64,000 nt of DNA from Candidatus Falkowbacteria bacterium RIFOXYD12_FULL_34_57. Lineage in GTDB: Bacteria; Patescibacteriota; Patescibacteriia; Patescibacteriales; UBA12075. Made by a program: the position numbers and the translations under genes. Positions 18,047-62,500 of this stretch are shown in pieces (positions within the stretch are counted from its first letter, which is position 1; each line of letters begins with the position of its first letter). The notes below the pieces were generated by a model. The model did no database searches, was not told the DNA's origin, and saw only the letters and a program-made list of their open reading frames with translations. The stretch covers positions 138,200-202,199 of the forward strand of contig MFGN01000005.1 of the NCBI GenBank assembly GCA_001780285.1, in the 5' to 3' direction.

Positions 18047-18070
18047 ATGTTAAAATGTTAAGATGAATTT
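18047..18070 (+). promoter_or_regulatory. ATGTTAAA octamer array with extended -10-like TGTTAAAAT; predicted leaderless start of leuS
   Basis: Octamers atgttaaa|atgttaag|atgaattt. TG (18048-18049), n, TAAAAT (18051-18056), 6 nt, then ATG 18063. Confidence 0.4.
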
Positions 18071-21000
18071 TATGACTAATAAATATAACCATCAAAAAAT
18101 TGAAAAGAAATGGGCGGAAAGATGGGTAAAAGATAAGGTTTTTTCGCCTGATTTAAAAAAATCAGAGAACCCCTATTATGCCTTGTTTATGTTTCCTTAT
18201 CCTAGTGCAGAAGGGCTCCATATCGGCAATTTTTATGCATTTACCTGTGTTGATGTCATGGCTAAATATAAGAAATTACAGGGAATGGACGTGTTTGAAC
18301 CGGTTGGTTTTGATGCTTTTGGAATTCATAGTGAAAATTATGCATTAAAAATAGGGGAAACTCCTCGGAAAATGTTGGATAGGACTATTGTTAATTTTCG
18401 CAAGCAGCTTAGCTCAGCCGGACTTGGCTGTGATTGGACTCGCGAAATAGATACCACCACTCCGGAGTATTACAAGTGGACACAATGGATTTTTACCAAG
18501 CTTTTTGAAAAAGATCTCGCTTATCAAAAAGAAGCTTTGCTTAATTGGTGTTCCGGATGCAAAACAGTATTGGCTGATGAGCAAATTGAGGATGGGGTCT
18601 GCGAACGATGCAAGACTGTTCCGGAAAAAAAAACAATGAAGCAATGGTTTTTCAGAATCACCAAATATGCCGAGAAGCTTTTAAACGGACTTGAGACGAT
18701 GGATTGGTCGGATATCACCAAGTCGGCGCAAAGAAATTGGATTGGCCGCAGCGAAGGAGCGGAAGTAGAGTTTGTTATAAAAAACGAAAGAAATGATATA
18801 AAAAAAATTTATCTTGGAACAGGTAATAAATCAAAAATAGAAAGACTGGAAAAAATTTTTAAATATGTTAATCCGGATATTAAAATTGAACAAGTTCCGG
18901 AAGTGGTTGATGTTCCGGAAGAAAGCGATAATGGACTGGAGAATTCTAAGCAGAAAGTTTTAGCTTATCATGGTAAATATGACTATCCGGTTGTCTCTTG
19001 TGATACTTCTGTATTTTTTGAAGGAGAAGATTTTGATCCGACGCATGTCAAGAGGGTTGCTCTGGGGGGCGAGGATGAATCCGGCTTTAGCCAGAGGGAA
19101 ATTGCGGAAAAAATAAAGGATTTTTATATAGACATTGCCAGGAAATACGGAGGTCGGAAAGAATTTTATTTTGAGGATGCCTGGACAATTCTTTTTCCCA
19201 ATGGTGAAATTAAGCAGTTAAAATATCGCAGAGAATACATTATGACAGATAAATTGCAGGGGGAGCTTGATATTTATTTTCCGATGAGAAGCCTGTATCT
19301 GGTCAAAGCGACAGGCAGAGATATTTTTAATCAGACCGAGGAAGAATGGAAAAAAGAATTTCAGCCCCAGATTGATGCCTTTAGCGGTGTTTTTGGAAAA
19401 AGTAAATTAAAAGTTTTTACCACTAGACCGGATACATTGTTTGGCGCGACTTATTTTGTAATGTCTCCTGAACACCCGTTAGTGAGGGAAATAACCACAA
19501 AAGAACAAAGCGAAAAAATAGAGGATTATATTAAAAAATCTGGAGCGAAGTCTGAATTGGAAAGAACGGAAAACAAGGAAAAAACAGGAGAATTTACCGG
19601 CGCCTATGTTGTAAATCCGGTAAATAACGAAGAAATCCCGGTGTTTGTGGCGGATTATGTAATGATGGGATATGGCACCGGAGCTATAATGGCTGTACCG
19701 GCGCATGATGAACGCGATTTTGAGTTTGCAAAAAAATTTAACATTTCGATTAAAGAAGTGGTCAAACCAAAAAATAGCGGAAAAGATAAAACAATTTTAG
19801 TGCTTCACGGACTTTGCGATGATTCTTCCAAACACTGGTTTCCATGGTTTAAGCAGGAGTTTGGTGGCAGGGGCTACAATGTGATTATTCCGGATATGCC
19901 CAATCCGCATTTGCCTCGCGTAGAAAGATGGATGGATTGCTTAAAAGAATTAAAAGATGATTTAAGCGGGAATTTGACCATTGTTGGTTTTAGCTTGGGA
20001 ACACAAGCGGCGTGCATGTTTATTGATAAATATAATGTTGCAGTAAATAATTTAATTTTAGTGGGGCCAAGTGAAAAAGAGGGAAAGACGATTGAGGAAT
20101 TAGTTGAGGCCGGACTGCCCAGAGAAAGCCTCGAACATAGCGAAAAATTCGGAGAAGAGAGGGTTGATTGGAAAAATGTAAGAAGACTGGTTAAAAACAC
20201 TATTCAATATTTGTCCAGCAATGATCCCTATATTGAAATAGAAACTGAAAAATATTCAGATGTTTTAAATCCGCAAAAAAGAATATTTTTTAATAGGGGG
20301 CATTTTACGGAAAAATTCGGCATAGATAAGATACTGGAATTAATTCCTGATATTGAAGGCTGTACGGTTGGCGATGGCATAGCTGTGAATTCTGGATTCT
20401 TGGACGGTTTAGAAACTTCGACAGCAAAAGAAAAAATGATATCTTGGCTGGAAGGAAAGAAAATTGGCAAAGGAGTAGTGAATTATCGCTTAAGGGATTG
20501 GTGTATATCCAGACAAAGATATTGGGGCCCTCCTGTACCGATTGTGTATTGCGCGAAGTGCGGAGCTTTGGCTGTTTTCGAAAAAGATTTGCCGGTAAGG
20601 CTGCCCGAACTAGAGAAGGGCTGGGAGCCCGTGGGAGACGGAAGGGGGCCCTTGGCCAATGTTGATGATTTTATGAATACAACTTGTCCAAAATGCGGAG
20701 GCGCGGCCAGCCGCGAAGCGGATGTGATGGATAATTTTCTCGATTCGGCTTGGTATTTTTTTAGATATATAGACCCTAAAAATAACAATAAAATTTTTGA
20801 TCAAAAGCTTGGTAAAAAATGGCTTCCAGTTGATTTTTATGTAGGGGGAAATGAGCACGCAGTTCTTCACTTAATGTATACAAGATTTATCACTATGGCG
20901 CTGCACGATATCGATCTGATTGATTTTGATAATCCCTTCAAAAAATTTCGCGCTAACGGCATGATACTTAAAGACGGAAAAAAAATGAGCAAATCCAAAG

Positions 21001-21656
21001 GTAATGTTATTAATCCGGAAGAATATGGGGAAAAGGTGGGCTATGATGCCCTGAAAACATATTTATTATTTTTAGGGCCATTAAATGAAGATCGTTCATT
21101 TACCGATGAGGGTGTGCGCGGAACAAAACGATGGGTGGAGAAAATTGCGCGACTGGAAGAAAAAATTAAAAATAGCCATAAAGACGAAAATGAAATTATA
21201 AACAAATTACATAAAACTATAAAAATGGTAACAGATGACTTTGAAGACCAGAGATATAATACAGCTGTTGCCAGACTCATGGAATTAACTAATGTTTTAA
21301 ATTTAGCAGATAAAATTTCCACTCAAACATGGAAATCCTTTTTGGTTTTAGTATCCCCCTTTGTTCCGTCTATAGCCGAGGAAATGTGGGAAAGACTGGG
21401 AAATAAGAATTCAATTTTTAGCGACAAGCTGTGGCCCGAATATGATGCAAAATTAGCTCATGACGAATTTATTGAGTTGATTGTTCAGGTCAATGGAAAA
21501 TTAAGAGAAAAAATTGAAGTATCTATAGATATCACGGAGGAAGAAGCAAAAAAAATTGCATTAGAAAGTGGAAAAATAAAAAAATGGATAGAAGGAAAAA
21601 AGATTGAAAAAGTGATTTTTGTAAAAGGAAAATTGATAAATATTGTTGTTAAATAA
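18063..21656 (+). CDS. leuS: leucyl-tRNA synthetase with two large inserted domains (1197 aa)
   Basis: Motifs: HIGN (HIGH), RNWIGRSEGAEVEF, TTRPDTLFGATY and GTGAIMAVPAHDERDFEFA (CP1 editing), NYRLRDWCISRQRYWG, KMSKSKGN. About 340 extra residues lie in two blocks (about nt 18783-19403 and 19782-20357). Confidence 0.95.
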   Translation: MNFMTNKYNHQKIEKKWAERWVKDKVFSPDLKKSENPYYALFMFPYPSAEGLHIGNFYAFTCVDVMAKYKKLQGMDVFEPVGFDAFGIHSENYALKIGETPRKMLDRTIVNFRKQLSSAGLGCDWTREIDTTTPEYYKWTQWIFTKLFEKDLAYQKEALLNWCSGCKTVLADEQIEDGVCERCKTVPEKKTMKQWFFRITKYAEKLLNGLETMDWSDITKSAQRNWIGRSEGAEVEFVIKNERNDIKKIYLGTGNKSKIERLEKIFKYVNPDIKIEQVPEVVDVPEESDNGLENSKQKVLAYHGKYDYPVVSCDTSVFFEGEDFDPTHVKRVALGGEDESGFSQREIAEKIKDFYIDIARKYGGRKEFYFEDAWTILFPNGEIKQLKYRREYIMTDKLQGELDIYFPMRSLYLVKATGRDIFNQTEEEWKKEFQPQIDAFSGVFGKSKLKVFTTRPDTLFGATYFVMSPEHPLVREITTKEQSEKIEDYIKKSGAKSELERTENKEKTGEFTGAYVVNPVNNEEIPVFVADYVMMGYGTGAIMAVPAHDERDFEFAKKFNISIKEVVKPKNSGKDKTILVLHGLCDDSSKHWFPWFKQEFGGRGYNVIIPDMPNPHLPRVERWMDCLKELKDDLSGNLTIVGFSLGTQAACMFIDKYNVAVNNLILVGPSEKEGKTIEELVEAGLPRESLEHSEKFGEERVDWKNVRRLVKNTIQYLSSNDPYIEIETEKYSDVLNPQKRIFFNRGHFTEKFGIDKILELIPDIEGCTVGDGIAVNSGFLDGLETSTAKEKMISWLEGKKIGKGVVNYRLRDWCISRQRYWGPPVPIVYCAKCGALAVFEKDLPVRLPELEKGWEPVGDGRGPLANVDDFMNTTCPKCGGAASREADVMDNFLDSAWYFFRYIDPKNNNKIFDQKLGKKWLPVDFYVGGNEHAVLHLMYTRFITMALHDIDLIDFDNPFKKFRANGMILKDGKKMSKSKGNVINPEEYGEKVGYDALKTYLLFLGPLNEDRSFTDEGVRGTKRWVEKIARLEEKIKNSHKDENEIINKLHKTIKMVTDDFEDQRYNTAVARLMELTNVLNLADKISTQTWKSFLVLVSPFVPSIAEEMWERLGNKNSIFSDKLWPEYDAKLAHDEFIELIVQVNGKLREKIEVSIDITEEEAKKIALESGKIKKWIEGKKIEKVIFVKGKLINIVVK

Positions 21657-26715: not shown

Positions 26716-29700
26716 ATGTTCAACAAACCTATTCTTAAATTGATACTGCCGGTAGTTATTATTTTTGTTTTGTTTTTTGGTTCAAGTAGTGTTATTTTGG
26801 CGCAGACAATACAAACAACTGATTGGGAGTCTATTAATACTGAAATAGAGGGTAATGTGCAAAATGAAAAGAATTGGCTTAAGGATTCACTTATGTGGCT
26901 TCAAAATTTTTCTTGGAAAAAGGCTGGTTCGGTGGCTTTTTGGTCGGCTGTAAAAAGCGCTTTGAACCAGATTGCTTATGATACCGCCACTTGGATCGGT
27001 TCCGGCGGCAAAGGACAGAAGCCGATGTTTATTACCGAGGGGTGGGGGGAATATTTAAAAAATATCGGAGATAACGCTGCTGGAACTTTTTTAGAAAGTT
27101 TGGGAAATGAGAATGGCTGGAAAAAGTTTAATCTTTGCAATCCAAGTTCGGATATAAGAATCAAAATAGGATTGGGACTCGTGGACGATTATAGGCCCAA
27201 GAAACCCTCATGTACTTTTTCTAAAATGAAAGAAAATTGGTCTCAGGCCCTAAAAAGCGATAATTTTTTAACCAATCTGCAGAATGCTTTTGATCCGACC
27301 GAGTCTACCTTGATCCAGGCTCTGTCGATTCATACTAGTTTTTGGGGCACTCTGGATCTAAAAAAAGAAGTAGATGGTTTGGATAGGATAGAAAATGAGG
27401 GTTGGTTGGATATTAGCGGTATAGCCGGTACCAGAGAAAATCCGCCGGGACACGCCAAAAGCAAGTTAGAGCAAGCTAAAAGGATTAGGGAGGCGTCTTT
27501 TTCCGAGAACACGGAAGACGCTTTTGAAGATGCTATCAATATATTTTTAAATAAGCTGGCAGTAGAGCTTTTTAATCGTTTACTGGAGTCGTTGGGGAAG
27601 GGCAGTAAATACTCAGGCTCTTATAATTGGAGCGGTTTAAATATTGGCAGCTTGTCGGATTTTTATAGTGAAAACGATTCAGGGGGAGTAGTGGCCGCAA
27701 AAGTAAAATTTAAAAAATTAGTTGAACCGAGTTTTAATGTCCGTGGGGATTATAATATTCTAGCAGAACTTGCTATGTGTCCAGATCCAAACAAGGCCGG
27801 ACCCACTAACTGTGTTATCTCTGAAGAGTTTAAAACCGCAGTGGAAAACAACATGACGGTAGGAGAGGCAATACGTGCCGGCTATCTGGACCCAAGCGGC
27901 ATTTTTGGATTTAATGCTAATGGCATAGAACCTTTGTATAATGAAGGATATCCTTATCGCTCCATGGTAATTTTACGAAAATTCAGAATTCTGCCTGTCG
28001 GCTGGGAACTTGCCGCCCAGTTTATTAAGGATAACCAGCAAATAACAGGCGGAGCGCAGAATTTGGAATATTTAGTAAATTGTTTTGACCCTAACGATGA
28101 TTACGGAAACATTTCACCTGTTTGGTGCCGTGGATTTGTGGACCCGAATTGGGTACTCAAGGCCCCGCTTAATTATTGCGAGCGCTCAGGCCCGGGACCG
28201 GAAATATTGTATCAGACAATAGTTGGTCAGGGGGGCGATAGTAGTTTGGTGGTGAGCAGAAATGATGATTACTGCGCCGATGAGAAAACATGCATAAAAG
28301 AGGAGAATGGAATTTGCAGGCTGTATGGATATTGTACTGAAGAAAAACGAACCTGGAATTTTGGCAATAATTCTTGTCAGCCGGAATTTAATACTTGCCA
28401 GGCTTTTCAGTTTTATCAAGGCAACACTTTTGGTTATCTGGAAAATACTTTAGAATATGGCACTTGCAGTATAGATAATGTGGGCTGCCGGGAATACTGC
28501 GAAGATTATGATTATACCAACTCTAATTACACCTGTAATGTTAGTGCTGGAAATAAAATTTATTTAGATCGCGATGCAGAGGTATGTGATAAGGATTCTG
28601 ATGGATGCAGTGAATTTATCAGAACCAAGCCGGTGGCTAAGGCAAATCTGCTTTATGATTCCAGTTTTGAAACTAATTTTGGAATATCTGGTTTGCCTGT
28701 AGTAAACAGGTTGTGCGACGGCGATATGGTGGATGGTGTTTGTAGTTTGCAGTTGACGGGTGATGTGGCACCTGGTGTGGTTCCGATTTTTGATAGCAGT
28801 AATATTCCCCTGCAGGGAGAAGCATTTACTTTTTCTATTTATGCTAAAAATTGCGGTGATGCCGGCAGGATTTTAATTGGGGGAGATGTAAATTGGAGCT
28901 TGAATCACTCTTCCACCACCCTCTCCACTTCTGACACTTGGCAGCGCTTTAGCGTCAGCCATTTGATGATTCCCGGCACCAATGAGGTGTGGGTGGGTAT
29001 AGAAGATATAATTGATAATGGTAATTGCGCAGGTAACGACTGTTGCCGCATTGATTCTGCTAAAATAGAAAGAGGGGAAGGAGCAAGCCCTTATAGTGAT
29101 TACCGGGAAGAAGGGCTTATATACATGAAGCTTCTGCCTGATTATTTGGAAAATGAGTGTTATGTTAATCCGGGAATGGATTACAGCCTAAAAACCAATT
29201 ATCCGGAAGTTTGTGATAATTATAATCGCAAGTGCAATGAAGAGGAATGGGGCTGTGATCTTTATACTTCTATTAAAAATAAATTATCTGTTCCGGCTAT
29301 TACCAAGGCGATGGATTATTGTACGGAAGAGTGTCTTGGATACGATGAGTATTTACAGATGGAATCTCTTTTTGAATCAAAAAATTTGCAATATTTTATT
29401 CCAAAAACTGCCAGAAAATGCAGCGCAGGAGCCGAGGGGTGCAGTGAATTTACTAATTTAGACACTATTCAAGAGGGGGGAGAGAATAGGGAATATTACA
29501 AACACCTTCGAAGATGTATTCGTCCAAATGATCCATTTGCAAATTGCAGCGAGTTTTATACTTGGGAAGGATCATCCGAAACAGGTTTTCAATTGAAAGT
29601 TCATGTTTTACAAGTAGACGAAGACGCAGACGATGTAGTTGGTGTGGATGGTATGTATACCGGAGATCCTGATGTAATAGAAGGGGATCAGCTTGTTTGC

Positions 29701-32700
29701 AATCAAGCTATATATAATTTGCCGGCCACGGATCCTGGATACAATGAGGATTGTTTGGAATATTATAATACAGCCGGAGAAGTTTCTTATCATGTTAATA
29801 GTAACACCATATCTTGCACAGAAAATTGCCACCCTTATAGAAAAACGGATAATAATGTGGTGCGGGATCCGGTTTCAAATAATCATTATACCCAGATTCA
29901 ATGTGAAAATCTTTCAAAGTATCCGGGCACATGGATAGATATCAGTAGAAATTTTTATTTGGATGCCGATCCAACCAATGATCAATGCGTATTTTGCAAA
30001 GCTGATGGCGTATGGAGCAATGAACATGGCAAATGTCTTTATATGGCCATACCAAATGAGGGAATAAAATGTTCGGCTTCGCAAAGCGGTTGTAGGGAAT
30101 ATAGTGGAAGTGAAGGAAACAATGTGCGTATTGTTGCGAATGATGATTTTGAAGGAAGTTTAAATAATTGGGAAGGATTTGGCGGCAGTTCGGTCTTGGT
30201 TGACAGTGAATCATTGATAGTAGGAGGGGAGTCGCTCAAAGTAACTGGCGGTTCAATTAAAAAGACAATAAATGCCTGGAATAATAGATCATACATGTTG
30301 ACATTTTTAGCTAAAGAAGACACTTCCACCGGAAATGAGGCTCAAAATTTTACTTCCGTAAGATTTGATAATGTGTCTTTGTTTGCCCCATTGCCAACAG
30401 TAATAAACGCCGGTTGGAGTCTATATAAATTTAATTTAGATATAGCCACTTCAGCCAAAGAATTGATTATAGTGGCTGATGGAGATTTTTTCATTGATAA
30501 TATTAGGTTAACGGAAATTTCAGATCGTTATTTCTTAATTAAAGATTCATGGAATACCCCGAATTCCTGCTATAATGACATTTTTGGGAATTACAGAGGA
30601 CCAACTTTTAATTTGGGGTGTGATGCTTATACTGATAAAGCGGGAGATGTGCATTTTTTGCATAGTTTTTCCGAGCTTTGCCAGGAATCGGCAGTGGGCT
30701 GTGAATTGATGATTGATACTCATAATTACAGCAGTTTTGAGGCGGGAATTTGGAATGATCAAAATTCAGATGGGTTTTGCACTGTTATTGATGGACAAGA
30801 TTGTGAATATATAGAGGGTGATAGTTTGATTTATGCGGTTTATAATGAAGATCATGAGTGTAATAACGATGAAAAAGGATGTCTGCGTATCGGAGAACCT
30901 TATTTTTATGCGGGAGACGTGGTTTATACGGATAAATATCTGGAAAATAATCCAGATCAATATACAAACATTTTGTGTAATGAAGATGGATCCGGATGTG
31001 ATGAATGGCTGACGGGTAAGGGAATATCTTATTTTAAATATCCAGAAGATCAGGTTTGTGAGTGGAGGCAGGAAGGGATAAACGGTATTAATGTTTGGGA
31101 TTGGTATAAAAAGAAAATAAAAAGATGTGATGATGGCGCGGGTACCGGGGTAGTAAACGGCAAAATAGATGTGGGTGGCGCCGGTTTGCCAGAAGAAGCT
31201 AGTATTTGCTTGCGAAACAGTAATTGTGACGATAATGGTTTTGCATGTACTGAAAATAAGGACTGTAGAATGCAGGCATGTGTTGCCGGTGTGTGTTCTG
31301 CAACTCGCGAGGCTTGTATAAATAATGATCAATGTCCTATTTTGGGAAGTTGTGAAAATAATTTGTGTCACTATTCTTGTATTCAGGATACAAATAATTA
31401 TGATTGTGTTTTGGATATTGATTCGGGTGTACCGGGTAAAACCTTGGGTCATGGGGGGGGTAATGAAAAAGTGGGACAACCAACAAACAGTTTGGATGGA
31501 AACTGGGTAGGTCTTTGCCCCGTGTCAGATTCTGGATGCACGGAATATATTGATCCGATTTCTAGAGAATCTATCAACGCAGTCTTTAACGGAGATTTTT
31601 CTCAGGATATAAATGGTGATAGTTTAGCCGATGGCTTTAACGGTGCTGGACAACAGGAACTAACACTTAAACCAAGCACACCCTATATATTGTCAATCGA
31701 AAGTAATAGTTTAAGTGTGACTGCGAGTTTGAATAGCACTAATAATGACCTTGTTCCGTTTAATGAAACCAACAATAGATTTTTAAATGCTACCCCCAAT
31801 ATTAGCGTTGTTAATGTTATTGGTGAAAGAAATAGTATTTTATTCTACACCTCAGAAGGTTTAAATGATACGGTCACTCTCACGTTAAGCAGTATAGCTA
31901 CCGGCAACAATACTAAAGTGGGAATAAGAAAAGCACTTGTAAAGTATTCCCTTGAACAAGGTTTAGATAAGACATCGTGTAATGGGGGAGTAAGTTTTGA
32001 GCAAGGATGCGTTTTGTTTAATGAAAGAAAAGTTACAGGTGGAAATGGTTTAGGCAGCTTTAGTTATAAAAGTTTGGGATATGATGCAGACAATAGTCCG
32101 AATTTGAGTAATGGACCGGAAGACTGTCCTTTGGGTGGATGTGATTCAAATGTTATATTAAAGGTAGCACCAGACAGGGTGTGTGATCAATGGTTGGCTT
32201 GTAAGAGTTATATCCATGACAAAAACGGCAATCCAGAATGTTTTGACATCGGGCTCTGCAATAGTGTGAATGACAATGGTTTCTGTAATAGTTTTATTAA
32301 TGAAGAGGACAACACATTACAAGTAATAGGTCTTGGTAACCCTATTGATAAATATCAAAATGTTTCTGGCTATGTAAAAGTTGGTATGTCCAGCGCAAGT
32401 GAAGAGGGAATGAAGGGAACATATAAATTTAATAACATGACGCAAGAAGGATCCACCACCCTTGTTCCCAATGGAAGTTTTGAAGATATTGGCAATAATA
32501 AATATCCTATAGCTTGGGTAATGAAAGATAATACCGGCGGTAGCGTATCATGGGGTGATCAAATGATGCGCGTTATTGATAATCCGGCGGAAATGCAGAA
32601 TGAAGGCATAAGCCATGTTCCCGAGGGAAGAAATTTCTTAAAGCTTGGTTCTATATATAAAGCGGTTTCAGAAAACATAGATGTTGTCAGCGGAGCGGAA

Positions 32701-35271
32701 TATTTTGTCTCCGGACACATAAATACTTTAAAATTATCGGGTGGTACTGCTAAAATAAAAGTAATAGGTGGCTTAGGCAATAATGAAATATTGGTAAATA
32801 ATGGTTTGGATTGGACATTTGGTATGCGCAAATTTACAGCTTTGGGAAATTTGCTTTCCATTGAGCTATATGCCGAACTTCCTGGAGGAGGAGAGCCTGT
32901 GGGAAATTTTTTCTTTGATAGTATTCGTTTAACTCCGGCGCTTAAAATTAGGGATACTTCATATGTGTCAAAGAGCTGTCGGTTGTATCCTCAAAGTGAT
33001 TCTATGTCATGTGAATATATTACCGATTCAGGCGCTCGCGAGAAAGGGTGGTATGGATATTGTCTTGAATACGATCGTTTTCCGGGCAGTGAAAATACCT
33101 GCCTTCAGTGGTGGCCGGTTGATCGGGTAGAGGGAGAAGGTATAGAGGGTGACTATGGATATCTGGATTCTTTCCCGCTTTATTATTGTCAAGAAGCATA
33201 TACTAATCGGCCGGTTGAAAGACGAAGACTGAGAAATGCTTCTTCGGACATAGTTTGGGGAGAATGCAATAGCGGATGTCTGAATACGGAGTACAATTGC
33301 CCGATAGGATATAGGCGCAGATTGGAATTGATTGATCCTGGCCAGTGTCCCAGTGACGGAAAAAAGTTCATTATTTGGACAATTGACGAAGGAACCCCGG
33401 GTTATAATTCGCAATGCACTCCTACATGTGTAGCTGATGGCGCAAGATATTTGACTACCGAAGACGGACAATATGGATGGTATGATTATTTAAACGGTAT
33501 AATGGATGCCACGGAGGTGGTGGTGTATGGTGATATAACAATTATGATTCCGGCTGAAAATGGAGTTAGATTTTTTAATCCGACTACGAATGTAATTACC
33601 GATGATATAGCGGATTGCTTGCAGGTTACCCAGGTAGTAACTCCTAGCGGCCAAAATAAGTACTGGAGCGGAAGAGTGTATGAGAATAGTAATTATTTTG
33701 TAAATGGCGTTGGTGCCATGGCTGATCTTGGTTATTCTTATGATACCCCCAATTCTCCATTTGGTTCCATGATGCCTCCCGAGCCGCTTAGTAATCCGTA
33801 TGAATGGTCCCGTTCAACCCAAAGACCAGTACCTGTGTCTATACCCCCTAATTCAGATAGGGCGAATGCCGGATATCCTTATAGTTTAAGCGGTGGCGTA
33901 GTTTTTCCCGGTTCTATTTACGGGATTTGTAGCGGATCCAGAACAATGTGTATCAGTCCCGCTACACCTGGCAGTAAGTACGACTGCAAATTCGGCGAGG
34001 TTTGCAATTCATTTCCGAATCAATCTCCTCTTAATGCGATTGATAATTTAAAAAGGTTGTATGCTAAGAATTATGGCACTTGGGTTTGGGACGAAAATTT
34101 AAACAGATATATATTAAGGGCCTTTGCCTCTGTCACGCAGGGAAATTGCAGTATTAGCGGTTTACCATGTAATTTTAATGAATGCGGTGTGCAAAATTGC
34201 ACATTTGATACAACCAGAAGCACCTGTAATGGCGGCACAGCGTCCGGTGCAGAGTGTACTAATAATTGCGTGGGCGTCGGTTGCGGGATATCATTTACAA
34301 TTCCTCTGTTTGCCTGTTCCGATAATCCGAACATGAATTGCTGCGCCGGTGCTTCACAGGCAGTGGCTACTTGCGGCGTAGGAGAAGATTGTTTATTGAC
34401 ATACGGCGGAACTTTCCGATGCGAATTTAGCGGCAACTATTGCAATCCGGTGTCGCCGGGGAATGGTTTTGTTTGTACTGGCGGAGCCAATATTGGAGAT
34501 ATTGTGCCTCAGGCGAGCTGCAGTGCCGGTTTTTGTAATCCGCTTGGCACAAGCAGAACTTATAATGTAAATGCTTGCGATATCGCAGCGCCTGCACCCA
34601 ATGCTTTTTTGCAACGCTGTTGCCCTGGCGGTAACTGCATTCCGGAAAATATATATACCTGCGGAGCATTATCACTTGCGCTTGGCGGACAACAATGTTT
34701 TCAATGTCCGGACGGGGGACACTGTGTTATTCAAAATAATCCCGGTGCTCAAAACAACCTTTGGGGTCCCCCAGGAACAAATGGAGAGCCCAATAATGGC
34801 TTGTGTGTCGGCGGTGTTAGAAATATAGATGATTATTGCGCGATACTACCTGTGATAAACAATAACAATATAAAAGTAAATGGAGAAAATGTTGCATTAA
34901 CCATTCAGGAAGAATTTAAATTTGTAAATTTAACCTTTAATAGCGATGTTGATGAGAATCAATTACCCATGGTTATGTATGCTGTTGATTGGGGTGATGG
35001 ATCGGCCACCAATATTTCCGGAGCAGAAATGATAGAAAAGCCAAATGCAGACAACCCGCACTCTTTATATCACCTATATGATTATTGGAATATGAAAAAT
35101 AAATTACCATCATGTGGAGGAGGTCTTGTTGTTAATTGTTGTTTTTCTGATCATTGCGTGATTCAGCCGAGAATAAAAATAAAAGATAATTGGGGGTGGT
35201 GTAATCATGGCGTAAATATTAACGATTGTTCTCATTGGGATTTTCGTCCGATCATCACTATTTATGAATAA
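26716..35271 (+). CDS. giant (2851 aa) secreted/anchored cysteine-rich multidomain surface protein
   Basis: Uninterrupted 8.6-kb ORF with an N-terminal signal/anchor (LILPVVIIFVLFFGSSSVILAQT). About 130 Cys by manual count. Four Cys-poor jelly-roll/CBM-like modules (N.DFE/NGSFE openings, ...IDNIRLTE/FDSIRLTP endings). Recurrent C-x-E-[YFW] motifs and a C-terminal PKD-like YAVDWGDGS. Confidence 0.9.
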   Translation: MFNKPILKLILPVVIIFVLFFGSSSVILAQTIQTTDWESINTEIEGNVQNEKNWLKDSLMWLQNFSWKKAGSVAFWSAVKSALNQIAYDTATWIGSGGKGQKPMFITEGWGEYLKNIGDNAAGTFLESLGNENGWKKFNLCNPSSDIRIKIGLGLVDDYRPKKPSCTFSKMKENWSQALKSDNFLTNLQNAFDPTESTLIQALSIHTSFWGTLDLKKEVDGLDRIENEGWLDISGIAGTRENPPGHAKSKLEQAKRIREASFSENTEDAFEDAINIFLNKLAVELFNRLLESLGKGSKYSGSYNWSGLNIGSLSDFYSENDSGGVVAAKVKFKKLVEPSFNVRGDYNILAELAMCPDPNKAGPTNCVISEEFKTAVENNMTVGEAIRAGYLDPSGIFGFNANGIEPLYNEGYPYRSMVILRKFRILPVGWELAAQFIKDNQQITGGAQNLEYLVNCFDPNDDYGNISPVWCRGFVDPNWVLKAPLNYCERSGPGPEILYQTIVGQGGDSSLVVSRNDDYCADEKTCIKEENGICRLYGYCTEEKRTWNFGNNSCQPEFNTCQAFQFYQGNTFGYLENTLEYGTCSIDNVGCREYCEDYDYTNSNYTCNVSAGNKIYLDRDAEVCDKDSDGCSEFIRTKPVAKANLLYDSSFETNFGISGLPVVNRLCDGDMVDGVCSLQLTGDVAPGVVPIFDSSNIPLQGEAFTFSIYAKNCGDAGRILIGGDVNWSLNHSSTTLSTSDTWQRFSVSHLMIPGTNEVWVGIEDIIDNGNCAGNDCCRIDSAKIERGEGASPYSDYREEGLIYMKLLPDYLENECYVNPGMDYSLKTNYPEVCDNYNRKCNEEEWGCDLYTSIKNKLSVPAITKAMDYCTEECLGYDEYLQMESLFESKNLQYFIPKTARKCSAGAEGCSEFTNLDTIQEGGENREYYKHLRRCIRPNDPFANCSEFYTWEGSSETGFQLKVHVLQVDEDADDVVGVDGMYTGDPDVIEGDQLVCNQAIYNLPATDPGYNEDCLEYYNTAGEVSYHVNSNTISCTENCHPYRKTDNNVVRDPVSNNHYTQIQCENLSKYPGTWIDISRNFYLDADPTNDQCVFCKADGVWSNEHGKCLYMAIPNEGIKCSASQSGCREYSGSEGNNVRIVANDDFEGSLNNWEGFGGSSVLVDSESLIVGGESLKVTGGSIKKTINAWNNRSYMLTFLAKEDTSTGNEAQNFTSVRFDNVSLFAPLPTVINAGWSLYKFNLDIATSAKELIIVADGDFFIDNIRLTEISDRYFLIKDSWNTPNSCYNDIFGNYRGPTFNLGCDAYTDKAGDVHFLHSFSELCQESAVGCELMIDTHNYSSFEAGIWNDQNSDGFCTVIDGQDCEYIEGDSLIYAVYNEDHECNNDEKGCLRIGEPYFYAGDVVYTDKYLENNPDQYTNILCNEDGSGCDEWLTGKGISYFKYPEDQVCEWRQEGINGINVWDWYKKKIKRCDDGAGTGVVNGKIDVGGAGLPEEASICLRNSNCDDNGFACTENKDCRMQACVAGVCSATREACINNDQCPILGSCENNLCHYSCIQDTNNYDCVLDIDSGVPGKTLGHGGGNEKVGQPTNSLDGNWVGLCPVSDSGCTEYIDPISRESINAVFNGDFSQDINGDSLADGFNGAGQQELTLKPSTPYILSIESNSLSVTASLNSTNNDLVPFNETNNRFLNATPNISVVNVIGERNSILFYTSEGLNDTVTLTLSSIATGNNTKVGIRKALVKYSLEQGLDKTSCNGGVSFEQGCVLFNERKVTGGNGLGSFSYKSLGYDADNSPNLSNGPEDCPLGGCDSNVILKVAPDRVCDQWLACKSYIHDKNGNPECFDIGLCNSVNDNGFCNSFINEEDNTLQVIGLGNPIDKYQNVSGYVKVGMSSASEEGMKGTYKFNNMTQEGSTTLVPNGSFEDIGNNKYPIAWVMKDNTGGSVSWGDQMMRVIDNPAEMQNEGISHVPEGRNFLKLGSIYKAVSENIDVVSGAEYFVSGHINTLKLSGGTAKIKVIGGLGNNEILVNNGLDWTFGMRKFTALGNLLSIELYAELPGGGEPVGNFFFDSIRLTPALKIRDTSYVSKSCRLYPQSDSMSCEYITDSGAREKGWYGYCLEYDRFPGSENTCLQWWPVDRVEGEGIEGDYGYLDSFPLYYCQEAYTNRPVERRRLRNASSDIVWGECNSGCLNTEYNCPIGYRRRLELIDPGQCPSDGKKFIIWTIDEGTPGYNSQCTPTCVADGARYLTTEDGQYGWYDYLNGIMDATEVVVYGDITIMIPAENGVRFFNPTTNVITDDIADCLQVTQVVTPSGQNKYWSGRVYENSNYFVNGVGAMADLGYSYDTPNSPFGSMMPPEPLSNPYEWSRSTQRPVPVSIPPNSDRANAGYPYSLSGGVVFPGSIYGICSGSRTMCISPATPGSKYDCKFGEVCNSFPNQSPLNAIDNLKRLYAKNYGTWVWDENLNRYILRAFASVTQGNCSISGLPCNFNECGVQNCTFDTTRSTCNGGTASGAECTNNCVGVGCGISFTIPLFACSDNPNMNCCAGASQAVATCGVGEDCLLTYGGTFRCEFSGNYCNPVSPGNGFVCTGGANIGDIVPQASCSAGFCNPLGTSRTYNVNACDIAAPAPNAFLQRCCPGGNCIPENIYTCGALSLALGGQQCFQCPDGGHCVIQNNPGAQNNLWGPPGTNGEPNNGLCVGGVRNIDDYCAILPVINNNNIKVNGENVALTIQEEFKFVNLTFNSDVDENQLPMVMYAVDWGDGSATNISGAEMIEKPNADNPHSLYHLYDYWNMKNKLPSCGGGLVVNCCFSDHCVIQPRIKIKDNWGWCNHGVNINDCSHWDFRPIITIYE

Positions 35272-59554: not shown

Positions 59555-62500
59555 ATGACAAATTTACGCAAAGCTTTAGCTATTAGCGTTATGTCAATCA
59601 CCGTGCTATCAATGAGCATGTTAATGGTGCCTCTAACAGTTGGCGCCGCTGCTCAGGCTGGTGACTTGATTAAAATGGATGGTCTTTCATCTGTTTATTA
59701 CCTTGGCGCTGATGGTAAGCGATACGTTTTCCCTAATGAAGCAACATATTTTTCTTGGTACAGTGATTTCTCAGGCGTAGTAACCGTTCCTCAAAGTGAA
59801 TTAGAATCATATCCTTTGGGAGCAAATGTTACCATGAGAGCAGGAACCAAGTTAGTTAAAATTACTACAAACCCAAAAGTTTACGCTGTTGAACCAGGGG
59901 GCAATCTACGCCCGATTCCTGATGAAACTACAGCTGCAGCTCTTTGGGGTGCAAACTGGAACCAACGCATAGTTGATGTTCCTGATGCTTTTTTTACCAA
60001 TTATACTACTTTAACTAACGAAGTAAGCGCTACTGCTTACCCAGCTGGTTCTTTAGTAAAATATGGTACAGGAGCTGACACCTATTACATTGATGCTGAC
60101 GGAATGGCAAGAAAGATTGCTGACGAAGCAGCATTTATGGCTAATGGATTTTCATGGGACAATGTAGTTACTTCTACATTAACCATGCCAACAGCCGGTG
60201 CTGATATTACCGGTGCTGAAACAGGTATCTCTGATACCTCTGAAGGCGCAGGCGGTGTAGCAGGAGCAGGAACTGGTCTTACAGTTGCCTTGTCTTCAGC
60301 TACTCCAGCTGCAGGAAATATTCCGGCAGGCTCGCCTAATGAATTCTTGAAGCTATCTTTCACAGCCGCCGCTGATGGTGCTGTAAATGTTAATTCTATT
60401 ACATTAACATCTTATAACCTAGGAACACCCACTTATGTTGATAGTGTTACCTTCTTTGATGAAGGTGGTTTAAAAGTTGGTAATGCCAAGAATATGAATT
60501 CTGACGGCGTTGCTGTATTCAACTTTGCAACTCCTTTCAATGTTCCAGCAGGAACCACTAAAACTTTGTTGGTGAAAGCTACAATTGAAGCAGGACAAAC
60601 ATCCGGAAATTTTGCTTTGGGTGTTAAAGCTGTTTCAGACATCGTAACAAACGGTGCTGTGGTTAGCGGATCTTTCCCTGTTATTGGTAATACTAAAGCT
60701 GTGGTTAGCGCTACTATTGGTACAGTTGCCTTGAGCAACCCTGGTTTGACTGATGTATCTGTAGAATTTGGTGAAGATGATGTACTACTTGCTAGTTTTG
60801 ACCTAACAACTGCTAATGAAAATATTCTTTGGGAAACCGCTAGATTTAAAAATGGTGGAACAAACAGTGATTCTATCGTTTCTAATCTAAGACTCATGAT
60901 TAATGATGATGAGGCTGCTACAGCTGCTGGTCTTTCTGATAAATATGTTACTTTTAATTTAGATAGTTTTGTAATGAATAAAGGTGAAACATATAATGTA
61001 GAAGTTTATGGTGATATTGGAACCACAAGAGTTCTAGACACTGTTGATTTGTATGTTTACGATAATATCGACTTTTCATTTGTAGGTCAAAAATACGGAT
61101 ATGGTGTCCAAATGACAAATACTTTACTAGCAGCAGCTGCTTCTGGTATCGTAGCCACATTGGCTGCCGGTGATTTCACTATTGATATGGACAAAGTTGC
61201 CACTCCTGCTAAAGATGTAAGAGCTGGCGACAATGATGTAGTATTAGCTACCATGAAATTAACATCTAATGGTGAGAACGCTACATTAACTCAAATGAAC
61301 GGTTCTTCTGATAACTTTATTATTACCGGTACAGGTCTTGAATGTAATGAAATTGAGAATACCGAATTAAGAGATGTTGATACTGGTGTTGTTTATGATG
61401 TGACAGTTGCTTCAGGAACTGCTTCTTGGACTTGCGCTTTAACTATGACGGATGAAATTTCATTTGTTAAAGGTGTTACCAGAACATTCCAGGTTCGCAC
61501 TGATCTAAAGAGTTCTACAGAAGATTCTGTCAACTATATCAGCGGAGATGACACTCTAAAAGTAACACTCAAGAGCGGTGCTATTAGTAGTTACTTAACA
61601 GGTGATACTTCTGATGCTTCTATCACAAATATCACTCCAAGTTCTGTAACCGGCTCTATTGCTACCGTTAAAGCTTCTGCTTTAACTTGGGAAGTTACTG
61701 CTTTGACAGATAAGACAATTGTACCCGGCGCTTCTGATATAGTGATTTACAAATCTACATTAGAGGCTGGTGCTTCATCTTATATCGATATCACTTCTGT
61801 TAAACTTACTGTTTCAGCTGATAACGGTGATTACACCGGTTCATTTGTTGACAGTAATGTTTCAGCATTAAAGTTATATTTAGATGGTAAATTGTTAAAG
61901 ACACTGTCAAATCAAATTGCTGACGATACTGACGGAACAGCAACTGACAACTATATTGACTTTACTTCACTAGATACCACAAACAGAAGAATTGCTGCCG
62001 GTACCAAAGTCAACTTGGAAGTTATTGCCGACTTTGCCTCTTCTTTTGCGACTACCAGTACTTTCAGCTTGAAGCTTGCTACAGATGCTGATGTTAGTTC
62101 AAAAGACATGGATAGCAGAGCGGTTGATGAAACCGTAACCAACGGAACCTCCGCTTCTAGATCATTGACTTTGGCTTCAACCGGTACCTTGAAAGCCCAG
62201 ATCGAGATTGACGACACCAAAGCTGATGTAGACACCTACATCTTAGCTGGTGCCGAAACCACTCATGGCCGCTACCTTGGTGAAATTATCTTCACCACAG
62301 CTAATGAGCCTGTAAAGGTTAAGACTTTGTTATTGAAAAGAGCTTCCGGCGCTACATTCACTAGCAGTGATGTAAAATACGTTCGTCTTTATGACAAGGA
62401 CGGCGCTATGGTAGCTGAAAAAGCTCCAGATGCCAACGGCGCTGTAAACTTCGACACCTTCAACTATGTGTTGCCTGCTGATCAAGCCACCTCATTATTC

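What the first reader, a model, noticed from the sequence alone, without database searches (positions are those of the whole stretch)
19782..20357. LeuRS insertion 2: a YdeN/RBBP9-type serine hydrolase domain with an intact-looking Ser-Asp-His triad inside CP1
A block of about 190 aa lies after the conserved [27 protein letters not shown] and before GIAVNSGFLDGL...VNYRLRDW. It reads KTILVLHGLCDDSSKHWFPWFKQEFGGRGYNVIIPDMPNPHLPRVERWMDCL...LTIVGFSLGTQAA...LILVGP...YLSSNDPYIEIE...NRGHF. This matches the small alpha/beta serine-hydrolase family typified by YdeN/RBBP9 (ILxVHG...SHWxPWL...P.xP.P....W). It has a G-x-S-x-G nucleophile elbow (GFSLG, aa about 643), an Asp (SNDPY, about 721) and a His (GHF, about 747) at family-typical spacing. 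An esterase embedded in the aminoacyl-tRNA editing domain is a striking combination, because aminoacyl-tRNA is itself an ester. The canonical editing residues (TTRPDT, the Asp of AHDERD) are also still present.
Basis: partly seen in the sequence, partly recalled or inferred. Interest (0 to 1): 0.74.

Follow-up and report, generated by a model that had tools for sequence, protein, structure and literature searches.

The report
Serine hydrolase nested inside LeuRS editing domain
The leucyl-tRNA synthetase of this Candidatus Falkowbacteria genome carries a complete, active-looking small serine esterase/aminoacyl-hydrolase domain spliced into a loop of its proofreading domain, and the same kind of domain has been inserted repeatedly at three sites of this enzyme in ultra-small bacteria and archaea, which points to an undescribed accessory activity at a tRNA synthetase.

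Summary
Window 18063..21656 (+) encodes a 1197-aa bacterial-type LeuRS. Residues 569-765 (nt 19767-20357) replace an 11-residue CP1 loop of T. thermophilus LeuRS.

They form a PF06821 (YdeN/RBBP9) serine hydrolase: Pfam E 3.4e-14, an AF2 model with pLDDT 91.9, and TM 0.83/0.89 to YdeN. Ser644, Asp721 and His747 align with RBBP9 Ser75, Asp138 and His165. The CP1 editing motifs are intact.

The exact protein is on 15 contigs from three assembly sources, so it is not an assembly artefact.

The same family sits in CPR and DPANN LeuRS at three sites: the start of CP1, this CP1 loop, and the zinc knuckle. Copies are sometimes tandem or double. They belong to distinct hydrolase clades, keep the triad, and diverge at about the rate of the synthetase body.

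Close relatives of this LeuRS carry other cassettes in the same loop (NUDIX, NTase-like, unknown) or none. One lineage encodes a free-standing hydrolase-CP1-like-NUDIX protein 14 nt downstream of a plain leuS.

Function is inferred. Characterised relatives remove alpha-aminoacyl groups that have a free amine, including an aminoacyl-nucleoside ester. The likeliest role is therefore an extra acyl/aminoacyl-ester hydrolase working beside CP1. No publication describing this was found. Interest 0.68.

The parts
18063..21656 (+). leuS ORF: 1197-aa bacterial-type leucyl-tRNA synthetase carrying two large inserts. The HIGH-like motif LHIGN is at aa 52-56 and KMSKS at aa 974-978. It has no leucine-specific domain.
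   Evidence: ORF. TIGR00396 scores 914 bits against a cutoff of 548. Alignment to T. thermophilus LeuRS 1h3n, including a gap opposite Tt 580-636, is. The protein is 100% identical to P0002, 'hypothetical protein A2466_02545, Candidatus Falkowbacteria bacterium RIFOXYC2_FULL_34_220'.
19398..19766 (+). N-terminal part of the CP1 editing domain (aa 446-568), with TTRPDT (aa 453-458, nt 19419-19436), GTG (nt 19674-19682) and AHD (aa 547-549, nt 19701-19709).
   Evidence: PF13603 matches aa 446-575. The region aligns to Tt LeuRS 242-363.
19767..20357 (+). Insert 2: a YdeN/RBBP9-family (PF06821) alpha/beta serine hydrolase domain, aa 569-765. The folded core runs from strand beta1 at aa 576 to the last helix at aa 760-768. 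The linkers to CP1 are at most about 7 residues on each side.
   Evidence: Pfam E 3.4e-14. YdeN 5.9e-15. AF2 pLDDT 91.9, pTM 0.90. Foldseek gives 1uxo TM 0.83/0.89 with rmsd 2.3 A, and RBBP9 TM about 0.75/0.80.
19806..19811 (+). His582-Gly583, the 'HG' motif after strand beta1. This is the usual oxyanion-hole position in alpha/beta hydrolases. It is followed by KHWFPWF (aa 590-596), the family's W-x-x-W motif.
   Evidence: H is conserved in 93% and G in 100% of 30 LeuRS-embedded copies. W592 is conserved in 80% and W595 in 90%. The oxyanion-hole role is inferred from general alpha/beta-hydrolase knowledge.
19992..19994 (+). Ser644, the predicted nucleophile in the G-F-S-L-G elbow.
   Evidence: It aligns with RBBP9 Ser75 and the YdeN HSLG serine. 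It is invariant in 30 of 30 embedded copies.
20223..20225 (+). Asp721, the predicted triad acid in S-N-D-P-Y.
   Evidence: It aligns with RBBP9 Asp138. It is Asp in 25 of 30 embedded copies. In 4 of the other 5 a Glu occupies this column and an Asp lies next to it.
20301..20303 (+). His747, the predicted triad base in R-G-H-F.
   Evidence: It aligns with RBBP9 His165. It is conserved in 29 of 30 embedded copies.
20358..20498 (+). C-terminal part of CP1 (aa 766-812: GCTVGDGIAVNSGFLDG...VNYRLRD), resuming directly after the insert.
   Evidence: It aligns to Tt LeuRS 375-421.
18783..19406 (+). Insert 1 (context, not the finding itself): a Ham1/ITPase-like domain at the start of CP1, aa 241-448.
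   Evidence: Pfam PF01725 E 6e-5. AF2 pLDDT 89.7. Foldseek hits to dITP/XTP pyrophosphatases, Ham1 and RdgB with TM 0.6-0.7.

Best explanation
SHOWN. Residues 569-765 of this Falkowbacteria LeuRS are a complete YdeN/RBBP9-family alpha/beta serine hydrolase domain. It has a nucleophile elbow (Ser644), Asp721, His747 and an HG motif. It is nested through short linkers into a surface loop of the CP1 editing domain. The synthetase body and the canonical CP1 editing motifs remain intact.

The insert is one instance of a recurrent, selected feature of LeuRS in CPR/Patescibacteria and at least one DPANN archaeon. The same hydrolase family has entered LeuRS at three places: the start of CP1, this CP1 loop, and just after the first CxxC of the zinc knuckle. 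The copies come from different hydrolase lineages and keep the triad.

INFERRED. The domain is catalytically active. It acts as an accessory acyl- or aminoacyl-ester hydrolase on a substrate handled at the LeuRS CP1 / tRNA 3'-end region. The candidate substrates are a (mis)acylated tRNA-Leu 3' end, or an aminoacyl-nucleoside or aminoacyl-nucleotide species. It would use covalent Ser-His-Asp catalysis and would complement, not replace, the metal-free, non-covalent CP1 editing site.

Confidence by step: domain identity and nesting about 0.97. Real, selected and recurrent feature about 0.9. Catalytically active about 0.8. Substrate is an aminoacyl or acyl ester linked to tRNA-Leu or LeuRS chemistry about 0.4.
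For: Identity:
- Pfam PF06821 at 53.6 bits.
- YdeN and RBBP9 sequence hits with Ser, Asp and His aligned.
- AF2 pLDDT 91.9; YdeN TM 0.83/0.89.

Real gene: the identical 1197-aa product is on 15 contigs in NCBI GCA_001780255.1, ENA and Logan assemblies.

Recurrence:
- 11 of the 120 best LeuRS relatives carry PF06821.
- Copies sit at three sites, with tandem pairs (P0048, P0122) and one double (P0062).
- Embedded copies fall into several clades whose nearest neighbours are often free-standing proteins.
- Among the best 150 cluster representatives of the family, 16 are in LeuRS and none in any other synthetase.

Selection:
- Ser is kept in 30 of 30 copies, His in 29 of 30, Asp in 25 of 30. In 4 of the other 5 a Glu occupies the Asp column and an Asp lies next to it.
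- The insert diverges about as fast as the synthetase body in some lineage pairs, for example 78% against 72-86%, and somewhat faster in others.

Not a replacement for editing: TTRPDT, GTG and AHDxRD are kept in nearly all hydrolase-bearing LeuRS.

Link to CP1: P0394 is a free-standing protein made of hydrolase, a CP1-like domain with a degenerate T-rich motif, and NUDIX. It is encoded 14 nt downstream of an intact plain leuS and occurs on 6 contigs.

Chemistry of relatives:
- RBBP9 is a serine aminopeptidase that needs a free alpha-amine and forms an aminoacyl-Ser75 intermediate (PMC8866121).
- RBBP9 activates valacyclovir, an L-valyl ester of a nucleoside analogue (Shenoy et al. 2020, cited in PMC7730578).
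- The YdeN homologue ML-005 is a short-chain esterase (PMC6119806).
Against: - There is no biochemical data for any LeuRS-embedded copy.
- I could not obtain model coordinates, so the distance from Ser644 to the CP1 pocket or to the path of A76 is unknown.
- In LeuRS bodies 71-88% identical to this one, the same loop carries a hydrolase of a different clade (30-33% identity), a NUDIX domain, an NTase-like domain, an unknown domain, or nothing. This fits a generally permissive, fast-turnover docking site as well as it fits a hydrolase-specific role.
- The family also fuses to unrelated partners: adenylate kinase, GNAT, inositol monophosphatase, a PBP-like protein and uL22.
- Free-standing homologues show no leuS or tRNA neighbourhood.
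- RBBP9's alpha-amine anchor Glu108 aligns to Glu691 here, but that column is acidic in only 14 of 30 embedded copies.
- CP1 editing looks intact, so no obvious proofreading gap needs filling.
Confidence: 0.45

Rival explanations
1. Permissive-loop cassette, or 'hitch-hiking' enzyme. The CP1 and zinc-knuckle loops of CPR LeuRS tolerate whole domains. Streamlined genomes park assorted small housekeeping hydrolases there: esterase/aminopeptidase, NUDIX, ITPase-like, NTase-like. The hydrolase is active but works on small soluble esters or peptides unrelated to tRNA-Leu. The fusion only provides co-expression or stability.
For: - Site B of LeuRS bodies at least 70% identical to this one holds five or more unrelated contents, or nothing.
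- The window's hydrolase and that of its closest relative P0004 share only 30-33% identity at the same site.
- Insert 1 is 65-82% identical to P0063's, although the two host LeuRS are about 50% identical, which indicates cassette exchange.
- The hydrolase family has many other fusion partners.
- Free-standing copies have unrelated gene neighbourhoods.
Against: - LeuRS is by far the dominant partner: 16 LeuRS against 0 other aaRS among the 150 best family representatives.
- At least three different LeuRS sites were colonised independently by the same family.
- Tandem and double copies exist.
- The hydrolase-CP1-like-NUDIX module persists as its own gene right after leuS. A mere parking site does not explain that.
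Confidence: 0.28
2. Amino-acid supply. The domain is an RBBP9-like N-terminal aminopeptidase that releases hydrophobic residues such as Leu from scavenged peptides right at the synthetase. This would help an amino-acid auxotroph charge its most used tRNA.
For: - RBBP9 is a bona fide aminopeptidase for free-amine N-terminal residues.
- A related plant DUF1234 enzyme removes N-terminal hydrophobic residues (PMC8866121).
- CPR bacteria have reduced biosynthesis (general knowledge).
- A peptidase S51 gene and GNAT genes lie near some free-standing copies.
Against: - The specificity pocket could not be examined.
- It is not clear why NUDIX, ITPase-like or NTase-like domains would occupy the same sites.
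- Channelling from a surface domain to the buried synthetic site is not evident.
- The free-standing module is tied to a CP1-like fold, which binds the tRNA 3' end, and not to the catalytic core.
Confidence: 0.1
3. Guard or repair module in a molecular conflict. The exchangeable cassettes would detoxify aminoacyl-adenylate-mimicking LeuRS inhibitors. Alternatively they would repair tRNA 3' ends damaged by toxins, for example by removing N-acyl-aminoacyl groups, pyrophosphate or extra nucleotides.
For: - The pattern is patchy, fast-turnover, multi-lineage acquisition of different small enzymes among near-identical hosts.
- All of these enzyme types act on nucleotides or acyl-nucleosides.
- The domains sit around the part of LeuRS that handles the tRNA CCA end.
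- GNAT is fused to (P0148) or encoded near (L007, L009) the family.
- From my own knowledge, not tested here: MccF-type serine hydrolases and MccE-type GNATs detoxify aminoacyl-nucleotide antibiotics.
Against: - None of the inserts tested hits PADLOC or PHROGs.
- No toxin genes were seen nearby.
- The idea rests entirely on analogy.
Confidence: 0.12
4. Inactive relic or artefact. The insert would be a misassembly, a decaying domain or a purely structural spacer.
For: - A 108-aa database fragment (P0124) corresponds to this DNA with 155-nt and 107-nt deletions inside the insert.
- P0003, an insert-free LeuRS with identical termini, exists in one source.
Against: - The intact ORF is on 15 contigs from three independent assembly sources.
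- P0003 and P0124 are not on any recorded contig, and the deletion junction is absent from JGI metagenomes.
- The triad and HG motif are conserved across 30 embedded copies.
- The insert diverges about as fast as the host in some lineage pairs and moderately faster in others.
- The fold is predicted with high confidence.
Confidence: 0.03

Closest known systems
YdeN of Bacillus subtilis (PDB 1UXO), the type member of Pfam PF06821 / COG3545
   Same: Best sequence match (E 5.9e-15) and best structural match (TM 0.83/0.89, rmsd 2.3 A). It has the same roughly 190-aa minimal alpha/beta hydrolase fold, the HG...WxxW...P.P motifs and the Ser-Asp-His order.
   Different: YdeN is a free-standing protein of unknown substrate. 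The domain here is nested inside another enzyme's domain. It has Phe instead of His before the nucleophile (GFSLG against GHSLG) and a segment about 13 residues longer between strand beta6 and the Asp loop.
Human RBBP9 (PDB 2QS9, 7OEX): serine aminopeptidase and valacyclovir-activating esterase
   Same: Same family and fold (TM about 0.75/0.80). Ser75, Asp138 and His165 align with Ser644, Asp721 and His747. Its characterised chemistry is removal of an alpha-aminoacyl group with a free amine through an acyl-serine intermediate. That is the reaction type needed to deacylate an aminoacyl ester.
   Different: Only about 20% identity. RBBP9 is free-standing and eukaryotic and prefers Phe/Tyr. Its amine-anchoring Glu108 is not conserved across the LeuRS-embedded copies. 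No tRNA-related role is known for RBBP9.
The canonical CP1 post-transfer editing site of LeuRS (T. thermophilus, E. coli)
   Same: It is the host domain and is also a hydrolase of aminoacyl esters. Its motifs TTRPDT and AHD are intact here.
   Different: CP1 has an unrelated fold and uses no covalent Ser-His-Asp catalysis (established knowledge of LeuRS editing). The insert is an addition to CP1, not a variant of it.
Synthetases carrying an extra enzyme domain, e.g. NCBIfam NF040702 'isoleucine--tRNA ligase, N-acetyltransferase domain-containing'
   Same: This is a class I synthetase with an accessory catalytic domain that curated family models recognise. The model appears in the list.
   Different: The host is IleRS and the accessory domain is a GNAT. 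I have not examined its insertion site. Nothing comparable is curated for LeuRS plus a serine hydrolase.
Free-standing trans-editing factors (AlaX, YbaK/ProX, DTD)
   Same: The idea is the same: an additional hydrolytic module clears wrongly acylated tRNA. The P0394 protein, encoded next to leuS, would be a LeuRS-CP1-derived analogue.
   Different: Those factors have other folds and are homologues of editing domains. An alpha/beta serine hydrolase has not, to my knowledge, been shown to edit aminoacyl-tRNA.

Membership tests
Pfam PF06821 Ser_hydrolase (YdeN/RBBP9, COG3545) | Profile HMM score above the curated gathering threshold | tested here: met
   53.6 bits against a cutoff of 22 for the insert alone; 48.2 bits in the full protein.
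Pfam PF06821 Ser_hydrolase (YdeN/RBBP9, COG3545) | Compact, roughly 190-aa lid-less alpha/beta hydrolase fold | tested here: met
   AF2 pLDDT 91.9, pTM 0.90. The top PDB matches are exactly the family's solved members: 1uxo, 2qs9/7oex/9fcr and 3bdv.
Pfam PF06821 Ser_hydrolase (YdeN/RBBP9, COG3545) | Nucleophile Ser in a G-x-S-x-G elbow, aligned with RBBP9 Ser75 | tested here: met
   GFSLG with Ser644. Invariant in 30 embedded copies.
Pfam PF06821 Ser_hydrolase (YdeN/RBBP9, COG3545) | Acid and base aligned with RBBP9 Asp138 and His165 | tested here: met
   Asp721 and His747. The three-dimensional triad geometry itself could not be measured, because no coordinates are returned.
Pfam PF06821 Ser_hydrolase (YdeN/RBBP9, COG3545) | Hydrolytic activity (ester or aminoacyl-amide cleavage) | not testable with these tools
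   This needs enzyme assays. It is only inferred from conservation of the catalytic residues.
RBBP9-type aminoacyl (free alpha-amine) hydrolases | An alpha-amine anchoring acidic residue (RBBP9 Glu108), plus Ser76 and Tyr99 | tested here: inconclusive
   Glu108 aligns with Glu691 here, in a variable segment. The column is acidic in only 14 of 30 embedded copies. Ser76 corresponds to Leu645 and Tyr99 to Ser670.
Bacterial-type leucyl-tRNA synthetase (TIGR00396) | Equivalog HMM above cutoff, HIGH and KMSKS signatures, CP1 inserted after the first zinc module | tested here: met
   914 bits against a cutoff of 548. LHIGN and KMSKS are present. The alignment to 1h3n covers the body, CP1 and the C-terminal domain.
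LeuRS CP1 post-transfer editing site | T-rich motif TTRPDT, the GTG loop and the conserved Asp of AHD | tested here: met
   All are present in the window and in nearly all hydrolase-bearing LeuRS. Editing activity was not tested.
Known aminoacyl-tRNA editing or deacylase families (AlaX, YbaK/INS, DTD, Pth) | Sequence or fold homology of the insert to one of these families | tested here: not met
   The insert gives no Pfam or NCBIfam hit to them. Its fold matches are alpha/beta hydrolases only. Any deacylase role would be analogous, not homologous.
Inteins / selfish insertions | Intein splicing or homing-endonuclease domains, or flanking repeats | tested here: not met
   There are no such Pfam hits in the 1197-aa protein. 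The only repeats around the insert are short, imperfect chance-level matches.
Anti-phage defence or phage protein families | A match to PADLOC or PHROGs models | tested here: not met
   No hits for insert 2, insert 1 or three other site-B cassettes in PADLOC. No hits for the two window inserts in PHROGs.

The most novel reading that the evidence does not exclude
The hydrolase would be a second, mechanistically distinct proofreading or repair site built into LeuRS, using covalent Ser-His-Asp catalysis. It would act on the tRNA-Leu 3' end or on aminoacyl-nucleotide species. It would belong to a rapidly exchanging set of 3'-end and nucleotide 'sanitising' cassettes: serine hydrolase, NUDIX, ITPase-like and NTase-like. 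CPR bacteria and DPANN archaea would swap these cassettes in and out of three LeuRS loops. The set can also exist as a free-standing CP1-derived trans-factor next to leuS. The turnover may be driven by conflict with toxins that target synthetases or tRNA ends.
Probability: 0.15. Interest if true: 0.9.

Novelty: new variant of a known kind. Interest (0 to 1): 0.68.

Why it matters
Translational proofreading by class I synthetases is thought to rest on the CP1 fold alone. Here a complete serine hydrolase is wired into CP1. Its characterised relatives strip alpha-aminoacyl groups, including one from a nucleoside-analogue ester. The same family has been recruited to LeuRS again and again, at three sites, in the two great radiations of ultra-small symbionts.

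This gives a directly testable candidate for a new kind of quality-control or repair activity at a synthetase. The test would compare S644A against a CP1 Asp mutant in deacylation assays.

Even if the hydrolase proves unrelated to tRNA, the data expose something else. LeuRS loops in CPR and DPANN act as exchangeable docking sites for whole enzymes, with cassette turnover between near-identical hosts. I found no publication describing this mode of protein evolution in an essential gene. It also matters for annotation, because the window's protein is deposited only as 'hypothetical protein'.

Tried and rejected
- Assembly artefact: rejected. The identical protein is on 15 contigs from NCBI, ENA and Logan.
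- Hydrolase compensating for a dead CP1: rejected. Editing motifs are intact here and in nearly all hydrolase-bearing LeuRS.
- Intein or mobile element: no intein or endonuclease domains and no real flanking repeats.
- Defence or phage origin: no PADLOC or PHROGs hits.
- Guilt by association for free-standing homologues: three loci inspected, with no leuS or tRNA link.
- A second copy of the hydrolase in the window: none found in a six-frame HMM scan.
- The search for homologous proteins with the insert alone returned only one hit, because of its word filter. The exhaustive representative search was needed.
- The search for related loci with hydrolase alignments failed twice, for lack of a sufficiently conserved stretch.
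- The afdb50 fold library was unavailable.
- P0003 and P0124 could not be traced to any contig. The inferred P0124 deletion junction is absent from JGI metagenome contigs.
- Literature searches for LeuRS or aaRS inserts in CPR, Patescibacteria or DPANN, LeuRS plus NUDIX, and LeuRS CP1 plus a hydrolase domain found nothing relevant.
- Triad distances and the position of Ser644 relative to the CP1 pocket could not be computed, because model coordinates are not exposed.
Full report
**1. The observation**

Window 18063..21656 (+) is one uninterrupted ORF of 1197 aa. It is a bacterial-type leucyl-tRNA synthetase: TIGR00396 scores 914 bits against a cutoff of 548. It is about 350-400 aa longer than usual.

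Aligned to T. thermophilus LeuRS (1h3n), the body matches in four blocks. Two stretches are left unaligned:
- Window aa 242-447, between Tt 238 and 242, at the start of CP1.
- Window aa 569-765, between Tt 363 and 375, inside CP1.

The second stretch is the finding. It follows [27 protein letters not shown] and precedes GIAVNSGFLDG...VNYRLRDW. Base composition shows no break across it. No meaningful repeats flank it.

**2. What the insert is**

- On its own the insert scores 53.6 bits (E 3.4e-14) on Pfam PF06821 Ser_hydrolase, against a cutoff of 22.
- Against PDB sequences the best hit is B. subtilis YdeN (E 5.9e-15), followed by human RBBP9.
- An AlphaFold2 model built on 74 sequences has mean pLDDT 91.9 and pTM 0.90, with the strand-helix alternation of an alpha/beta hydrolase.
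- Foldseek ranks YdeN first (TM 0.83/0.89, rmsd 2.3 A). Next come the RBBP9 entries (TM about 0.75/0.80) and the YdeN-like 3bdv. Generic small esterases follow.
- In the RBBP9 alignment, Ser75, Asp138 and His165 fall on Ser644 (G-F-S-L-G), Asp721 (S-N-D-P-Y) and His747 (R-G-H-F).
- An H582-G583 motif after strand beta1 and the family's W-x-x-W motif (KHWFPWF) are also present.

The folded core runs from strand beta1 at aa 576 to the last helix at aa 760-768. Only about 4-7 linker residues therefore join it to CP1 on each side. The domain replaces a loop that is 11 residues long in T. thermophilus.

**3. It is real**

The protein is 100% identical to 'hypothetical protein A2466_02545' of Candidatus Falkowbacteria bacterium RIFOXYC2_FULL_34_220. 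The identical product is called on 15 contigs. These include NCBI GCA_001780255.1, an ENA assembly and an independent Logan assembly of SRR3989339, all with the same neighbours.

**4. It is not a one-off**

Among the 120 best LeuRS relatives, 11 carry PF06821. Reading their sequences and mapping inserts against a plain 807-aa LeuRS gives three insertion sites for the hydrolase:
- Site A: between GRSEGAE.EF and VFTTRPDT.
- Site B: the window's site, after [12 protein letters not shown].
- Site C: directly after the first CxxC of the zinc knuckle, Tt Cys439/Cys442.

P0048 and P0122 have tandem copies at site A. P0062 has one copy at B and one at C.

An exhaustive HMMER search of 1.84 billion cluster representatives found 1401 family members. 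Among the best 150:
- 16 are in LeuRS: 8 at site B, 7 at site C and 1 at site A.
- 1 is a CP1-like protein.
- About 11 are other fusions.
- About 120 are free-standing proteins of roughly 190 aa.
- None is in another synthetase.

One site-B example is from a DPANN archaeon, Nanohaloarchaeota RLG13644.1. IMG already labels another one 'leucyl-tRNA synthetase/predicted alpha/beta hydrolase family esterase'.

**5. Independent acquisitions under selection**

The embedded copies fall into several clades, each tied to one site. Their next neighbours are often free-standing proteins. The window's copy has no close relative. Its best matches are a free-standing protein at 41% identity and embedded copies at 37-39%.

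Across 30 embedded copies the Ser is invariant, His is kept in 29 and Asp in 25. In 4 of the remaining 5 a Glu occupies the Asp column and an Asp lies next to it.

Within lineage pairs the hydrolase diverges about as fast as the synthetase body in some cases, for example 78% against 72-86%, and 56% against 45-52%. In other pairs it diverges somewhat faster.

The CP1 motifs TTRPDT, GTG and AHDxRD are kept in nearly all hydrolase-bearing LeuRS. The hydrolase therefore adds to canonical editing and does not replace it.

**6. The loop is a cassette site**

LeuRS bodies 71-88% identical to the window's carry different contents at site B:
- A hydrolase of another clade, 30-33% identical (P0004).
- NUDIX (P0005, P0012).
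- An NTase-like domain (P0016; weak PF14907/PF10706 hits on the related P0021).
- Unknown domains (P0020; P0057).
- Only 10-36 residues (P0006, P0007, P0009).

Conversely, the window's insert 1 is 65-82% identical to that of P0063, although the two LeuRS bodies are only about 50% identical. Insert 1 is an ITPase/Ham1-like domain: PF01725 E 6e-5, AF2 pLDDT 89.7, PDB hits to RdgB, Ham1 and ITPA at TM 0.6-0.7.

Whole domains therefore seem to be exchanged between LeuRS genes. Free-standing NUDIX proteins 50-60% identical to embedded ones exist in Saccharibacteria, Paceibacterota and Nomurabacteria genomes.

**7. A telling relative**

P0394 is 515 aa and consists of a PF06821 hydrolase, a LeuRS-CP1-like domain with NUDIX at site B, and the CP1 C-terminus. 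In the CP1-like part the T-rich motif has decayed to VNRPEA, but AHD is kept.

It is a separate gene starting 14 nt after the stop of an intact, insert-free 807-aa leuS. A Sua5/YrdC-family gene follows it and a MetRS gene lies upstream. It occurs on six contigs.

The hydrolase and NUDIX thus travel with the CP1 fold, the part of LeuRS that holds the tRNA 3' end. They can evidently operate in trans next to leuS. A hydrolase 59% identical to site-C copies is fused to ribosomal protein uL22.

**8. Mechanism**

Shown: an intact catalytic apparatus, nesting with short linkers, recurrence, and selection.

Known for relatives:
- RBBP9 is a serine aminopeptidase that requires a free alpha-amine and forms an aminoacyl-Ser75 intermediate (PMC8866121).
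- RBBP9 was identified as a valacyclovir-activating enzyme, meaning it cleaves an L-valyl ester of a nucleoside analogue (Shenoy et al. 2020, cited in PMC7730578).
- ML-005, a YdeN homologue, is a short-chain esterase (PMC6119806).

Inferred: the embedded domain hydrolyses an acyl or aminoacyl ester presented at the CP1 / tRNA 3'-end region, as an extra quality-control or repair activity. I put this at about 0.4-0.45.

The main rival, at about 0.28, is that the LeuRS loops are simply permissive docking sites for assorted small hydrolases with no tRNA role. The cassette diversity favours this rival. The LeuRS specificity, the three-site recurrence and the P0394 module argue against it.

Lesser rivals:
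- A peptide-to-leucine supply function (0.1).
- A conflict-driven guard or repair function (0.12). It has no support from PADLOC or PHROGs.
- A relic or artefact (0.03).

**9. Limits**

- Model coordinates are not exposed, so triad geometry and the distance to the CP1 pocket were not measured.
- RBBP9's amine anchor Glu108 aligns with Glu691 here, but that column is acidic in only 14 of 30 embedded copies.
- Free-standing homologues show no informative gene neighbourhood.
- Two odd database entries, P0003 and P0124, could not be traced to any contig.

**10. Novelty**

Each part belongs to a known family, and annotation pipelines have registered the domain combination. Six full-text searches found no paper describing hydrolase, NUDIX or ITPase inserts in LeuRS of CPR or DPANN, or any alpha/beta serine hydrolase linked to a synthetase editing domain.

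I rate it a new variant of a known kind: a synthetase with an accessory enzyme domain. The novel-case reading is a new proofreading or repair mechanism with an exchangeable cassette system, at about 0.15 probability.

Noticed in passing
window 18783-19406 (+), aa 241-448 of the same LeuRS: Insert 1, at the start of CP1, is a divergent Ham1/ITPase-like domain. Evidence: PF01725 E 6e-5; AF2 pLDDT 89.7; Foldseek hits to dITP/XTP pyrophosphatases, RdgB and ITPA at TM 0.6-0.7; also to the KomBC defence complex. It is 65-82% identical to the insert of P0063, although the two host LeuRS bodies are only about 50% identical, which suggests lateral exchange of the cassette.
   Followed up: partly
L011 3563-7548 (JGI 3300045398 contig Ga0490024_001563): An intact plain 807-aa leuS is followed 14 nt later by P0394. 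P0394 is a free-standing 515-aa protein made of a Ser_hydrolase, a CP1-like editing domain (T-rich motif decayed to VNRPEA, AHD kept) and NUDIX. A Sua5/YrdC-family gene follows and overlaps it; MetRS lies upstream. It is seen on 6 contigs. I know of no described free-standing LeuRS-CP1 paralogue.
   Followed up: partly
site B of related LeuRS: P0005/P0012 (NUDIX), P0016/P0021/P0029 (NTase-like), P0020/P0032 and P0057/P0085 (two unknown domains), P0113 (ASCH plus hydrolase at site A): The same CP1 loop hosts at least five unrelated domains among LeuRS bodies that are at least 70% identical. About 35 of 115 close relatives have a site-B insert of 60-240 aa.
   Followed up: partly
P0251 (395 aa, JGI): A PF06821 hydrolase, 59% identical to the site-C LeuRS copies, is fused to ribosomal protein uL22. 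Other fusions of the family are with adenylate kinase (P0247), GNAT (P0148), inositol monophosphatase (P0189) and a penicillin-binding-protein-like C-terminus (P0248; not checked by Pfam).
   Followed up: partly
P0003 (828 aa, source label 'src', no contig on record): This LeuRS has N- and C-terminal ends 100% identical to the window's. Identity falls gradually to about 70% in the middle, and both inserts are missing. It could not be located on any assembly and its origin is unclear: a recombinant allele, a chimera or a non-natural sequence.
   Followed up: partly
window 19705-20290 versus P0124 (108 aa): P0124 is a database fragment that equals the translation of this DNA with two internal deletions: 155 nt (19792-19946) and 107 nt (20142-20248). 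The deletions would break the LeuRS frame. P0124 is not on any recorded contig, and junction 1 is absent from JGI metagenome contigs. It may be an assembly shortcut through A-rich microhomology or a rare deleted variant.
   Followed up: partly
window about 20970-20985 (aa 970-974): This LeuRS lacks the leucine-specific domain. T. thermophilus residues about 580-636 have no counterpart just before KMSKS.
   Followed up: no
P0122 (1169 aa, ENA) and P0126 (238 aa): P0122 starts at QRNWIGKSEG, so it lacks the N-terminal catalytic half. It then has two tandem hydrolases, CP1, NUDIX and a long unusual C-terminal extension. P0126 joins a LeuRS N-terminal peptide directly to a hydrolase. These may be split or rearranged leuS genes in that lineage, or gene-calling artefacts.
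   Followed up: no
window 1-64000: ARAGORN finds no tRNA gene in the whole 64-kb window. The window also holds a 2851-aa ORF (26716-35271) and a 1222-aa ORF (59555-63223), neither of which I examined.
   Followed up: no
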